A stretch of 64,000 nucleotides of DNA, taken from NCBI GenBank assembly GCA_016872415.1, contig VGZX01000005.1, positions 5,210-69,209 of the forward strand. Direction: 5' to 3'. Source of the DNA: SAR202 cluster bacterium (GTDB taxonomy: Bacteria; Chloroflexota; Dehalococcoidia; Lucifugimonadales; Australimonadaceae). Positions 15,242 to 17,365 of this stretch are shown in pieces (position 1 is the stretch's first letter; each line of letters starts with the position of its first letter). Under the pieces are notes generated by a model that did not search any database, was not told the origin of the DNA, and saw only the letters and a list, made by a program, of their open reading frames with translations. A program made the position numbers and the translations under genes.

Positions 15242-17365
15242 TCACCGCGACGACCGCTTGAACGCCGCGATCGCCTCGTCGAAATGCCTTTCCCGAATCG
15301 TGACCGGCGCTTCCTGGCCTCCCGCGATATGCTCCCGCGCGGCGTTGAAGGCGGCGCGCCGGCACAACGCCTCGATGTCGGCGCCGCCGAAGCCGTCGGT
15401 CTTCCCCGCTAGCGCGGCCAGGTCCACGTCGGCCGCGAGCGGCTTGCCCCTGGTGTGGATACGCAATATCGCCTCGCGCTCGACACGTCCCGGCGGCGGC
15501 AGGTCGATCCGCAACTCCAGGCGGCCGGACCGCAGCAGCGCCGGGTCCAGCGCGTCGGCGCGGTTCGTGGCCGCCAGCACCACGACGCCCTTCAATTCCT
15601 CGATGCCGTCCAGCTCCGTCAGCAGCCGGCTGATGACCCGGTCGGCCACGTTGTGCTCGCCCCCCGCGCCGCGGCGTGGCGCGAGCGGTCGATCTCGTCG
15701 AAGAAGATAATGCACGGGCTCGCCAGCTTGGCCTTGTGAAACACTTCGCGCACCGCCCGCTCCGACTCGCCCACTCATTTGGAAAGCAGCTCGGGGCCTT
15801 TCACGGCGATGAAATTGGCGTGCGTTTCCGTGGCGACGGCGCGCGCGAGCAGCGTCTTGCCAGTGCCGGTGGGCCCCACGAGCAACATGCCCCTTGGGCG
15901 GGCGCGTGTTGATCCGCGCGAACACCTCGGGATAGCGCAACGGCCATTCGACGGCCTCCCGCAGCAACCGCTTCGCGTCGTCGAGCCCGCCAACGTCGTC
16001 CCAGCGCACATTCGGCATCTCGGTGAACACCTCGCGGATGGCGGACGGCTCCACCTCCTTCAATGCCTCCATGAAATGCTCCGCCCGCACCTTCAGCCGG
16101 TCGAGCAGGTCCGACGGCACGAACTCCAAATCGGCGCGCACCTCCGGCATCAGCTCGCGCAGCGTCGCCATCGCGGCTTCGCGGCACAGGGCCGCCAGGT
16201 CGGCGCCCACGAAGCCATAGGTGAGCTCGGCCAGCTTGCCCAGGTCCACGCCCTCCGACAGCGGCATGCCGCGCGTGTGCACGTTCAGTATTTCCAGGCG
16301 GCCCTGGCGGTCGGGCACGCCAACCGTGATCTCCCGGTCCAGCCGCCCAGGCCGTCGCAGCGCCGGGTCCAGCGTGCTGGGCACGTTCGTCGCGCCGATA
16401 ATGACGATCTGCCCGCGCGTCTGTAGCCCGTCCAGCAGCGCCAGCAGCTGAGCGACCACGCGGCGCTCCACCTGCTGGTGGCTGCCCATCTCCTCGCGCT
16501 TCGGCGCGATCGCGTCGATCTCGTCGATGAACAGAATCGCCGGCGCGTGCGCCTCGGCCTCCTCGAAGATGCGACGTAGCCGCTCCTCGGACTCGCCGTA
16601 GTAGCGTCCGATGATCTCGGGGCCGCTGATGGTGGTGAAGTAGGCGCTGGTCTCGTTCGCCACGGCCTTCGCGATCAGCGTCTTGCCGGTGCCGGGCGGC
16701 CCGAACAGCAAAACGCCCTTCGGCGGCTCGATCCCCAGCCGGTCGAACAGCTCCGAGTAGCGCAGCGGCAGTCCGACCATCTCGCGGATGCGGACGATCT
16801 CCTTCCGCAGCCCGCCGATGTCTTCATACGTCACGCCGGTATGCTCGCGCCCCGGTTGCTCGGCGCTCTCGCCCTTGATCTTCACGGTGGTGTTCGCGTG
16901 GATCACCACCGGGCCGTGGGGGTCCGTGGTCGCCACGATGAACTCGCGGTTGAGCCCGCCAAGGAACGTTGCTCGCACCTTATCGCCCTCGGTGACGGCC
17001 AAGCCATCGAGCACGCGGGCGACGTAGCGCAGGTCGGACTGGACGGGCGTGGTGCGAGTGGAAGCCAATGGCGCGAGCAGCACGACCTTCGCGGGCGAAG
17101 CCTTCAGCTTCTCCACCGTGACCCATTCGCCGATGGCCGTCTGCGTGTTCTCGCGCAGGATACCGTTCATCTGCATCGACCCCTTCGCGCTGGAGTCGGC
17201 GTAGGCGGGCAGCACCTTGGCGACCGATTCACGCTTGCCGGCGAGGCGGATCACGTCCCCCGCCGATACGTTCAGGCCGGCCATGTCGCGCGCGTCGATA
17301 CGCACGACCCCGCGACCGACGTCGCGAGACAGCGCCTCGGCCACGCGCAGACTCATCGCGCCCAT
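15242..17365 (-). CDS. CDC48/VCP-like double AAA+ ATPase; the D2 Walker A to Walker B segment is out of frame (possible pseudogene or assembly error)
   Basis: The N-domain and D1 are intact ([34 protein letters not shown]). D2 is recognisable before PPKG and after [26 protein letters not shown]. Its P-loop [13 protein letters not shown] and FFDEID lie in another frame (15775..16011 ORF and its continuation), which also carries a TGA. Confidence 0.75.

What the first reader, a model, noticed from the sequence alone, without database searches (positions are those of the whole stretch)
15686..15893. CDC48/VCP-like AAA+ gene: full-length ORF preserved, but the D2 Walker A-Walker B core is frame-shifted and carries TGA at a conserved Trp
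The 707-codon ORF reads as genuine Cdc48 up to ..[16 protein letters not shown] and again from ..[26 protein letters not shown]. The roughly 67 codons in between are Arg-rich nonsense. The real D2 sequence [38 protein letters not shown], then [29 protein letters not shown], lies in another frame. Entering that frame requires removing one base from the C4 run at 15890-15893 (CCC AAG GGC ATG would give PKGM). Leaving it requires one extra base near 15686-15690. Inside it, the Trp of the SKWVGESE motif, conserved in the Cdc48 D2 sequences I recall, is TGA (15775-15777). That makes three lesions within about 215 nt of an otherwise clean 2.1-kb gene. The +1/-1 pair compensates, so a full-length protein lacking a D2 nucleotide-binding site could still be made. 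The possibilities are a locally poor assembly, recent pseudogenisation, or a selected D2-dead variant.
Basis: partly seen in the sequence, partly recalled or inferred. Interest (0 to 1): 0.55.

Follow-up and report, generated by a model that had tools for sequence, protein, structure and literature searches.

The report
Recently broken bacterial Cdc48 ATPase gene
A Cdc48/VAT-type protein-unfolding ATPase gene in an uncultured SAR202 (Chloroflexota) bacterium carries three real, closely spaced disabling mutations in its second motor domain, which makes it most likely an ordinary, recently inactivated gene rather than a new kind of protein.

Summary
In the 707-codon ORF 15242-17365 (-), compared with intact homologues, there is one extra G in the run at 15890-15893. 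TGA replaces the conserved pore-loop Trp at 15775-15777. One base is missing at about 15686-15688. As a result, 68 codons covering D2 Walker A to Walker B are read out of frame.

Repairing the three sites gives a protein that aligns through the D2 core without a gap to Thermoplasma VAT and passes the NCBIfam CDC48 cut-off. The ORF as it stands fails that cut-off.

The lesions are not an assembler artefact. Logan contigs of run SRR7990526, built with a different assembler, are 100% identical over them.

The old frame still has native codon bias and all D2 motifs, so the damage is recent.

The preserved ORF is weak evidence for selection: 69% of shifted 67-codon windows here contain no stop, and the insertion alone would still leave a 739-codon ORF.

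Two more genes in the window are frameshifted. NCBI has protein records for both neighbours of this ORF but none for the ORF itself.

Best reading: a recent pseudogene or null allele. A selected D2-dead variant is unsupported. Interest is low.

The parts
15242..17365 (-). Cdc48/VAT-like AAA+ gene with N-D1-D2 architecture; the 707-codon ORF as assembled
   Evidence: ORF list. Pfam finds CDC48_N, CDC48_2, AAA x2 and AAA_lid_3 x2. PDB search of the repaired protein gives VAT 5g4f at E=4.7e-218. NCBIfam TIGR01243 scores 777.7 bits as assembled and 933.7 repaired, against a cut-off of 802.65.
16859..17350 (-). N-terminal substrate/cofactor domain (CDC48_N plus CDC48_2), intact
   Evidence: Pfam PF02359 matches residues 6-87 and PF02933 matches residues 109-169. 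AF2 pLDDT is mostly 75-93.
16136..16714 (-). D1 AAA+ module with its lid. Walker A is GPPGTGKT and Walker B is ILFIDEID; both are intact and in frame
   Evidence: Pfam AAA matches residues 218-349 and AAA_lid_3 matches 373-410. The motifs are read from the translation.
15890..15893 (-). Lesion 1: one extra G in a G run (G4 where homologues have G3). It shifts the reading frame just before D2 strand beta1 and Walker A
   Evidence: Sequence. DNA alignment with intact homologues L005 and L006.
15686..15889 (-). 68 codons (residues 493-560) translated out of frame. In the true frame this stretch encodes D2 Walker A (15853-15876), pore loop 1 and Walker B (15688-15711)
   Evidence: Three-frame translation. 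Codon-usage Viterbi excursion at 15671-15890. AF2 pLDDT is below 50 for residues 500-561.
15775..15777 (-). Lesion 2: TGA where homologues have TGG. This is the Trp of LSKWVGESE, which aligns with VAT W541 in D2 pore loop 1
   Evidence: Sequence. Alignment to 5g4f. DNA alignment. TGA is an ordinary stop codon in this window, at 20 of 51 gene ends, and Trp is TGG 159 times.
15686..15688 (-). Lesion 3: one base missing just after Walker B. GAC CG CTC stands in place of GAC GCG CTC, which would read D-A-L-A-P-R-R-G. The deletion returns translation to the true frame
   Evidence: Sequence. DNA alignment. The identity of the lost base is inferred.
15245..15685 (-). Remainder of D2 (sensor 1, Arg fingers, lid) and the C-terminus. 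It is in frame and conserved
   Evidence: Alignment to VAT. Pfam finds a second AAA_lid_3. AF2 pLDDT is 60-92.
17390..17665 (-). Intact 91-codon ORF 24 nt upstream of the Cdc48 gene. It sits in the same position in the two nearest relatives and is probably co-transcribed
   Evidence: Gene tables of L001, L005 and L006. 53-57% identity. No Pfam or NCBIfam match. NCBI record MBM3939653.1, locus tag FJ318_01920, SAR202 cluster bacterium.

Best explanation
This is a genuine, evolutionarily recent loss-of-function allele (a pseudogene) of a canonical bacterial Cdc48/VAT-type double-ring AAA+ unfoldase. The host is an uncultured SAR202-cluster Chloroflexota bacterium.

Three mutations lie within 208 nt:
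- a +1 G insertion in a G3 run;
- a TGG-to-TGA change at the D2 pore-loop Trp;
- a -1 deletion just after Walker B.

Each one alone would destroy D2. The insertion alone gives a 739-residue product with a nonsense tail of about 250 residues. The TGA alone truncates the protein at residue 529. The deletion alone truncates it at residue 581.

Because the two indels have opposite sign, and because shifted frames in this 68% G+C genome rarely contain stops, a 707-codon ORF survives by arithmetic, not by design. If translated, the product would have a normal N domain and D1 ring, 68 Arg/Ala-rich nonsense residues in place of three of the five core strands of D2 (Walker A, pore loop 1 and Walker B), and then a native D2 C-terminal part. 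That D2 cannot bind ATP or grip substrate.

Shown here: the lesions, their presence in two assemblies, the retained old-frame signal, and the intact state of all relatives. Inferred: that the allele is fixed, that it is non-functional, and how the lesions arose. They may be independent neutral hits after the first inactivation, or one error-prone repair patch.
For: (1) The lesions are defined at base level against two intact homologues. They disappear on minimal repair. The repaired protein aligns to VAT over residues 4-680 at E=4.7e-218, with no gap across the repaired D2 core. TIGR01243 rises from 777.7 bits, below the 802.65 cut-off, to 933.7. The Pfam AAA score rises from 192 to 299 bits.

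(2) The result does not depend on the assembler. Logan contigs SRR7990526_109215 (11,270 bp) and _553396 (3,040 bp) are 100% identical to the window across all five lesions found in it. A third Logan contig differs from the window by 2 SNPs in 11,384 bp, which shows the consensus sequences were derived independently.

(3) The damage is recent. Codon bias still marks the old frame at 15671-15890. The old-frame peptide keeps [10 protein letters not shown][W]VGESE and IIFFDEID. In a branch-length-matched leave-one-out test the rest of the protein is not an outlier, with 7 violations of 224 otherwise invariant columns against a range of 1-11.

(4) The surviving ORF is expected by chance. 69% of 67-codon windows in that shifted frame are stop-free, and the insertion alone leaves a 739-codon ORF.

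(5) Other genes are disrupted too. The SGL/SMP-30 gene is split at about 14135, with Pfam profile positions 1-130 in one frame and 132-245 in the other. An MFS transporter is split at about 32684 in a C5 run.

(6) NCBI holds proteins for the flanking genes with consecutive accessions: MsrA is MBM3939652.1 and the 91-aa ORF is MBM3939653.1. It holds none for the 707-aa ORF. This is what is expected if NCBI's PGAP pipeline marked the locus as a pseudogene.

(7) AF2 models the N domain, D1 and the distal part of D2 with pLDDT mostly 60-93, but residues 500-561 fall below 50.
Against: - No reads were inspected, and both assemblies most probably used the same read set. A platform-specific systematic error or a mixed population therefore cannot be formally excluded.
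- No close relative exists (nearest 72% identity). Fixation, age and dN/dS cannot be measured.
- Three lesions within 208 of 2124 nt (P=0.027) is more clustered than independent neutral decay predicts.
- The upstream partner ORF is still intact.
- An opposite-sign indel pair that restores the C-terminal 147 residues is also what selection for a full-length product would produce.
Confidence: 0.72

Rival explanations
1. Sequencing or consensus artefact: the organism's gene is intact, and the indels and the TGA come from the read data or from collapsing a strain mixture.
For: Two of the four indels in the window lie in G/C homopolymers: G3 to G4 at 15890-15893, and a C5 run at about 32680. The sequencing platform of SRR7990526 could not be established. 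Both assemblies probably share the same reads. There is SNP-level heterogeneity in the sample.
Against: Two different assemblers agree at every lesion over 14.3 kb at 100% identity. Exact k-mer assemblies of 3-11 kb imply accurate reads seen repeatedly. That inference rests on general knowledge of how Logan builds contigs, not on a test made here. The lesions are of mixed type: a homopolymer insertion, a non-homopolymer deletion and a G-to-A substitution. They are concentrated in 3 of roughly 50 coding segments instead of being spread evenly, and the 16 long genes used as the codon-training set are uninterrupted ORFs of 364-1131 codons.
Confidence: 0.12
2. Selected D2-dead variant: a full-length protein with a scrambled D2 core is made and kept. 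It might act as an N-D1-only unfoldase, as a regulator, or as a poison subunit. The -1 deletion was fixed because it restores the C-terminal part.
For: The +1/-1 pair restores the frame after only 68 codons and steps over the TGA. The N domain, D1, the distal part of D2 and the upstream 91-aa ORF are all intact. The lesions are clustered (P=0.027).
Against: Codon bias still follows the old frame, so the sequence has not adapted to the new one. A stop-free shifted frame is the default here (69%). There is no stepwise selective route, because each indel alone gives a nonsense tail or a truncation. None of 122 aligned homologues lacks an in-frame D2 core, and a D2-only search found no close relative of any kind. 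AF2 gives pLDDT of 27-47 for the segment, which replaces three core strands of the AAA fold. Known AAA+ proteins with an inactive ring keep the fold in frame; this last point is from general knowledge.
Confidence: 0.07
3. One clustered mutational event: a single error-prone repair or gap-filling patch, or a mutator episode, introduced several lesions at once and killed the gene in one step. The event may have extended to the SGL gene 1.5 kb away.
For: Three of the five lesions in the window lie within 208 nt (P=3e-4 on 64 kb). Four of five lie within 1,756 nt (P=4e-4). The mix of homopolymer indels and a G-to-A transition fits a mismatch-repair-deficient or translesion-polymerase spectrum; this is from general knowledge.
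Against: Selection alone concentrates lesions in genes that are already dead. Within the gene the clustering is only P=0.027. No quasi-palindrome or repeat that could template the changes was found around the sites. msrA, which lies between the two broken genes, is intact. The idea cannot be tested without a close ancestor sequence.
Confidence: 0.08
4. Programmed recoding: ribosomes make a normal Cdc48 by a +1 shift at GGG-C, Trp insertion at UGA, and a -1 shift after GAC.
For: None beyond the fact that the true-frame sequence is perfectly preserved.
Against: It would need three separate recoding events within 208 nt. There is no slippery heptamer at either site. Relatives encode the region in one frame, so there is no conserved recoding signal. 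TGA is a normal stop in this window (20 of 51 gene ends) and Trp is always TGG.
Confidence: 0.01

Closest known systems
Archaeal VAT / eukaryotic Cdc48-p97 (NCBIfam TIGR01243, CDC48 family AAA ATPase), including the many 'CDC48 family AAA ATPase' genes annotated in Chloroflexota/Dehalococcoidia MAGs
   Same: It has the same N (double-psi barrel plus beta-clam)-D1-D2 architecture. The alignment to VAT 5g4f covers residues 4-680 at E=4.7e-218, and the best hits are named Chloroflexota proteins. Once repaired it passes the family cut-off.
   Different: As encoded, D2 Walker A, pore loop 1 and Walker B are out of frame and the pore-loop Trp codon is a stop. The ORF scores below the family cut-off, at 777.7 against 802.65. 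The nearest intact relative is only 72% identical.
Ordinary bacterial pseudogenes with frameshifts and internal stops, including compensated frameshift pairs, as flagged by annotation pipelines such as NCBI PGAP
   Same: It has indels and a nonsense codon relative to intact homologues, residual codon bias in the ancestral frame, no NCBI protein record between consecutively numbered neighbours, and other disrupted genes nearby.
   Different: The three lesions are unusually close together, and the opposite-sign pair leaves a full-length ORF. Gene callers that do not use homology (JGI/IMG and the calls made on the Logan contigs) therefore report it as a normal 707-aa protein.
AAA+ proteins with a naturally inactive ring, for example NSF D2 or Pex1/Pex6 D1 (from general knowledge)
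   Same: One of two tandem ATPase rings would be catalytically dead while the other stays intact.
   Different: In those families the dead ring keeps the AAA fold in frame and is conserved across species. Here the core is replaced by frameshift nonsense with pLDDT below 50, and the arrangement occurs in a single sequence.

Membership tests
CDC48 family AAA ATPase (TIGR01243; Cdc48/p97/VAT) | N-terminal CDC48_N (double-psi barrel) plus CDC48_2 (beta-clam) domains | tested here: met
   PF02359 scores 80.4 bits (cut-off 35.1) over residues 6-87. PF02933 scores 43.6 bits (cut-off 22.4) over residues 109-169.
CDC48 family AAA ATPase (TIGR01243; Cdc48/p97/VAT) | Intact D1 AAA+ module with Walker A, Walker B and lid | tested here: met
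   Pfam AAA matches residues 218-349 and AAA_lid_3 matches 373-410. GPPGTGKT and ILFIDEID are in frame.
CDC48 family AAA ATPase (TIGR01243; Cdc48/p97/VAT) | Intact D2 AAA+ module (Walker A, pore-loop aromatic residue, Walker B) in the translated frame | tested here: not met
   Residues 493-560 are out of frame. GPTGTGKT and IIFFDEID exist only in the other frame, and the pore-loop Trp codon is TGA. The Pfam AAA score is 192 bits as assembled and 299 bits repaired.
CDC48 family AAA ATPase (TIGR01243; Cdc48/p97/VAT) | Whole-protein score above the curated NCBIfam cut-off (802.65 bits) | tested here: not met
   The ORF as assembled scores 777.7 bits. The ancestor was therefore a member, and the present ORF is a broken member.
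Pseudogene (operational: disrupted relative to intact homologues) | Frameshift(s) and/or an internal stop relative to full-length homologues, with the homologous sequence continuing in another frame | tested here: met
   DNA alignment, three-frame translation and codon-bias frame excursion.
Pseudogene (operational: disrupted relative to intact homologues) | The lesions are real in the organism's DNA (read support, fixation) | tested here: inconclusive
   A second assembler reproduces the lesions at 100% identity. Reads, coverage and allele frequencies could not be examined.
Pseudogene (operational: disrupted relative to intact homologues) | Loss of function or loss of expression | not testable with these tools
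   There is only a structural inference: pLDDT below 50 over the scrambled core.
Programmed ribosomal frameshifting / stop-codon recoding | A slippery or shift-prone motif plus a stimulator, conserved in relatives; or a reassigned stop codon | tested here: not met
   No slippery heptamer at either junction. Relatives are in one frame. TGA ends 20 of 51 genes.
AAA+ proteins with a conserved degenerate ring (NSF D2, Pex1/6 D1 type) | An in-frame, foldable but catalytically inactive AAA domain conserved among orthologues | tested here: not met
   The core is frameshift nonsense with pLDDT of 27-47. No other sequence shares it.

The most novel reading that the evidence does not exclude
The full-length ORF is translated and maintained. 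On this reading the SAR202 bacterium uses a Cdc48 whose D2 nucleotide-binding core has been replaced by a 68-residue Arg-rich insert. The protein would work as an N-D1-driven machine, or as a regulator of one, together with the conserved 91-aa upstream protein. The compensating deletion would have been selected to keep the C-terminal part.
Probability: 0.05. Interest if true: 0.5.

Novelty: new member of a known kind. Interest (0 to 1): 0.15.

Why it matters
The main value is as a caution for annotation. Because the two indels cancel and high-G+C frames rarely contain stops, gene callers that do not use homology (JGI/IMG and the calls on the Logan contigs) report this as a normal 707-aa Cdc48. 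That sequence now sits in protein databases with 68 residues of nonsense in it.

Biologically, it says that one SAR202 population can do without this Cdc48-type unfoldase, or at least without its D2 motor. It also says that about 3 of roughly 50 coding segments in this stretch are disrupted.

If the D2-scrambled protein were functional it would be an unusual natural experiment on the division of labour between the D1 and D2 rings. Nothing found here supports that.

Tried and rejected
- A search of metagenome contigs with the N-domain protein returned 600 pattern matches and no relative. A search with a codon-degenerate DNA pattern across the TGA site returned 0 hits.
- The genome-contig scan gave only a 33%-identical Synergistaceae locus.
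- Exact look-ups of the flanking proteins found only the same sample. No independent sample of this population is available.
- A protein search with the repaired D2 half alone found nothing above 68% identity. No intact allele or fragment exists in the collection.
- P0002 and P0008 scored very high (1304 and 1055 bits) but proved to be ~1000-aa triple-AAA proteins, not close orthologues.
- The search for repeats or quasi-palindromes that could template the lesions gave only short, weak arms. This was rejected as a mechanism.
- A second possible compensated excursion at 41294-41417 is a Pro/Thr-rich linker.
- The leave-one-out conservation test for relaxed constraint first ranked the window protein 1st of 123. 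That ranking is a long-branch effect. In branch-matched sets it is 2nd or 3rd and not an outlier.
- dN/dS was not attempted, because the nearest relative is 72% identical at protein level and synonymous sites would be saturated.
- The guess that the sample comes from the Lake Tanganyika JGI project was not confirmed. SRR7990526, FJ318 and 'SAR202 cluster' are all absent from that paper and its supplements, and SRR7990526 appears in no paper in the library.
- A literature search for bacterial Cdc48 partners gave nothing relevant to the 91-aa ORF.
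Full report
**What is there.** Window 15242-17365 on the minus strand is an ATG-to-stop ORF of 707 codons.
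- Pfam finds CDC48_N, CDC48_2, two AAA modules and two AAA lids.
- On the sense strand the sequence reads CCC AAG GGG C|ATG TTG CTC GTG GGG CCC ACC GGC ACT GGC AAG ACG. The ORF frame gives [15 protein letters not shown]..., while the frame one base later gives [38 protein letters not shown], then TGA, then [29 protein letters not shown].
- After GAC the ORF frame resumes sense with [17 protein letters not shown].
- In window coordinates, the G4 run is 15890-15893, the TGA is 15775-15777 and the missing base is at about 15686-15688.
- The out-of-frame stretch covers residues 493-560, or 15686-15889. It is 68 residues long with 16 Arg and 11 Ala.

**The lesions measured against intact relatives.**
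- A nucleotide alignment with the two nearest intact homologues (L005 encoding P0003 and L006 encoding P0004) shows exactly three differences of consequence: AAGGGGCATG versus AA-GGGCAT, TGA versus TGG, and GA-CCGCTC versus GAGGCGCTG. There is no other indel in the 300 nt aligned.
- I repaired the gene minimally by removing one G, changing TGA to TGG and adding one base.
- The repaired protein aligns to Thermoplasma VAT (5g4f) over residues 4-680 at E=4.7e-218, with no gap across the repaired D2 core. The repaired Trp falls on the VAT D2 pore-loop Trp.
- NCBIfam TIGR01243 (CDC48 family) scores 933.7 bits for the repaired protein and 777.7 for the ORF as assembled. The curated cut-off is 802.65.
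- The Pfam AAA score is 299 bits repaired and 192 as assembled.
- The ancestor was a regular Cdc48/VAT-type ATPase. The present ORF is a broken one.

**Real mutation or assembly error?**
- The exact 707-aa product is on record from JGI/IMG, on a 70,325-bp contig that is presumably the source of the window. It is also on record from a Logan assembly of run SRR7990526.
- The Logan contig of 11,270 bp is 100% identical to window 8576-19845. It carries all three Cdc48 lesions and the neighbouring SGL frameshift.
- A second Logan contig of 3,040 bp is 100% identical to window 31940-34979 and carries the MFS frameshift.
- A third Logan contig of 11,384 bp differs from the window at 2 SNPs with no gaps. 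The two consensus sequences were therefore derived independently.
- Long, exact k-mer contigs imply accurate reads seen more than once. That statement rests on my general knowledge of how Logan works.
- The lesions are also of mixed type: a homopolymer insertion, a deletion outside any homopolymer, and a G-to-A substitution.
- I could not inspect reads or establish the sequencing platform. I therefore leave about 12% probability for an artefact or minor-variant explanation.

**Age of the damage.**
- A GC3 frame plot and a codon-usage Viterbi run, trained on 16 long genes of the window, both switch frame at 15671-15890. The native codon bias still sits in the old frame, not in the frame now being read.
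- The old-frame peptide keeps Walker A, the pore-loop context and Walker B.
- In a leave-one-out test on sets thinned to comparable branch lengths, the repaired protein violates 7 of 224 otherwise invariant columns. The range for other sequences is 1-11, so it lies at the upper end but is not an outlier.
- In the unthinned set of 123 sequences, the otherwise invariant columns it violates are D67N, E198G, P204S, K254R and Q580R. These could be a faint sign of relaxed constraint.
- The damage is recent. How recent cannot be measured, because the nearest relatives are only 72% and 69% identical. A search with the D2 half alone also found nothing closer than 68%.

**Does the preserved ORF mean selection?** Not by itself.
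- In the window's own genes, 69% of 67-codon windows in that shifted frame contain no stop.
- I reconstructed each mutation singly. The insertion alone gives an open frame of 739 codons that runs past the end of the gene. The TGA alone truncates the product at residue 529. The deletion alone truncates it at residue 581.
- The only non-trivial fact is therefore that the two indels have opposite sign, which is roughly a one-in-two event.
- There is no stepwise selective route from an intact gene to the present state.
- AlphaFold2 was run on the ORF as assembled with a 36-sequence alignment. The N domain, D1 and the distal part of D2 have pLDDT mostly between 60 and 93. Residues 500-561 fall below 50, with 10-residue block means of 27-47.
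- Replacing three of the five core strands of an AAA domain with Arg-rich nonsense is not comparable to the conserved, in-frame inactive rings of NSF or Pex1/6. That comparison is from general knowledge.

**Recoding is excluded for practical purposes.**
- TGA ends 20 of 51 genes in the window, and Trp is TGG 159 times in the training genes.
- Neither junction has a slippery motif.
- Relatives encode the region in one frame.

**Context in the window.**
- The Viterbi segmentation shows two more genes with a frame switch and no stop.
- An SMP-30/gluconolactonase (SGL) gene at 13763-14630 is split at about 14135. Pfam SGL profile positions 1-130 lie in one frame and 132-245 in the other.
- An MFS transporter at about 32090-33396 is split at about 32684 in a C5 run.
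- No other in-frame stop inside a coding segment looks like a nonsense lesion; the rest sit where one ORF ends and the next begins.
- About 3 of roughly 50 coding segments in the Viterbi segmentation are therefore disrupted.
- Three of the five lesions lie within 208 nt, and four lie within 1,756 nt. For uniform placement on 64 kb these have P=3e-4 and P=4e-4.
- Part of this clustering is the trivial effect of a dead gene no longer being protected by selection. Within the gene the clustering is P=0.027.
- A single error-prone repair patch or a mutator episode is possible. No templating repeat was found.

**Identity of the organism and public annotation.**
- The 91-aa ORF just upstream is NCBI MBM3939653.1, locus tag FJ318_01920, from 'MAG: SAR202 cluster bacterium'.
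- MsrA, just downstream, is MBM3939652.1 and the gamma-glutamyltransferase is MBM3939654.1.
- The SGL gene is represented only by a 189-aa C-terminal fragment, MBM3939651.1.
- The 707-aa Cdc48 ORF and the 251-aa MFS fragment have no NCBI protein record.
- Consecutive accessions on either side of the locus mean that NCBI's pipeline emitted no protein there. This is what PGAP does for pseudogenes. It is an inference, because I could not read the record.

**Verdict.** The most likely explanation is a recent pseudogene or null allele of a canonical bacterial Cdc48/VAT gene (confidence about 0.72). The alternatives are:
- an artefact (about 0.12);
- a single clustered mutational event, as a variant of the mechanism (about 0.08);
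- a selected D2-dead protein (about 0.07);
- programmed recoding (about 0.01).

This is a new instance of an ordinary phenomenon. Its practical lesson is that compensated frameshifts in high-G+C DNA pass unnoticed through ORF-based gene calling.

Noticed in passing
window 17390-17665 (-); L005 5507-5782; L006 7708-7980: A 90-91-aa ORF lies directly upstream of the Cdc48 gene in this window and in both nearest relatives. It is 53-57% identical with 44 invariant positions, including the motifs LKW.K.HR.ERKA and DWEMEG. It has no Pfam or NCBIfam match, and only 5 proteins (one being this window's own ORF) match it in 5.8 billion clusters. It is a candidate lineage-specific Cdc48 partner. It is intact here although the Cdc48 gene is broken.
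   Followed up: partly
window 13763-14630 (+), junction about 14131-14136: The SMP-30/gluconolactonase (SGL) gene is frameshifted: Pfam SGL positions 1-130 are in one frame and 132-245 in the next. The junction lies beside a GGCATC GGCATC tandem hexamer. NCBI holds only a 189-aa C-terminal fragment (MBM3939651.1).
   Followed up: yes
window about 32090-33396 (+), junction about 32680-32686: An MFS transporter is frameshifted between its N- and C-terminal six-helix halves, at a C5 run (CTGCTGCCCCCGCGCTG). One base appears to be missing. The same sequence is in Logan contig SRR7990526_553396.
   Followed up: yes
window 14135-15891: Four of the five disabling lesions in the 64-kb window lie within 1,756 nt (SGL and Cdc48, with an intact msrA between them). 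For uniform placement P is about 4e-4. This could be a local mutation cluster, or simply two dispensable genes that happen to be neighbours.
   Followed up: partly
window 33400-34930, next to tRNA-Ala (TGC) at 34930-35004 (-): About 1.5 kb has no codon-bias signal in any frame, apart from one plausible 97-aa signal-peptide ORF at 34044-34337 (-). G+C dips to 0.64. Two Logan contigs end or overlap here, at 34979 and 34959. It may be a remnant of an integrated element or a real intergenic region.
   Followed up: no
window 34959-46342 versus L007: The Logan and JGI consensus sequences differ at 2 SNPs in 11,384 bp, which indicates some strain heterogeneity of this population in the sample.
   Followed up: no
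window 13006-13374 and 13391-13753 (+): Two tandem pterin-4a-carbinolamine dehydratase (Pterin_4a) genes of 122 and 120 aa lie side by side. Both appear intact.
   Followed up: no
proteins P0002 (1007 aa, ENA contig 3,697 bp) and P0008 (1024 aa, Logan contig 3,984 bp): These are Cdc48-like proteins with three AAA modules. In P0002 the D1 block is repeated exactly. They are either collapsed-repeat misassemblies or real N-D1-D1-D2 variants.
   Followed up: no
window 41294-41417 (-), inside gene 40840-42459: A Pro/Thr/Ser-rich linker in a DUF5667 protein next to an ECF sigma factor mimics a frame excursion in codon-usage scans. It is not a frameshift.
   Followed up: yes
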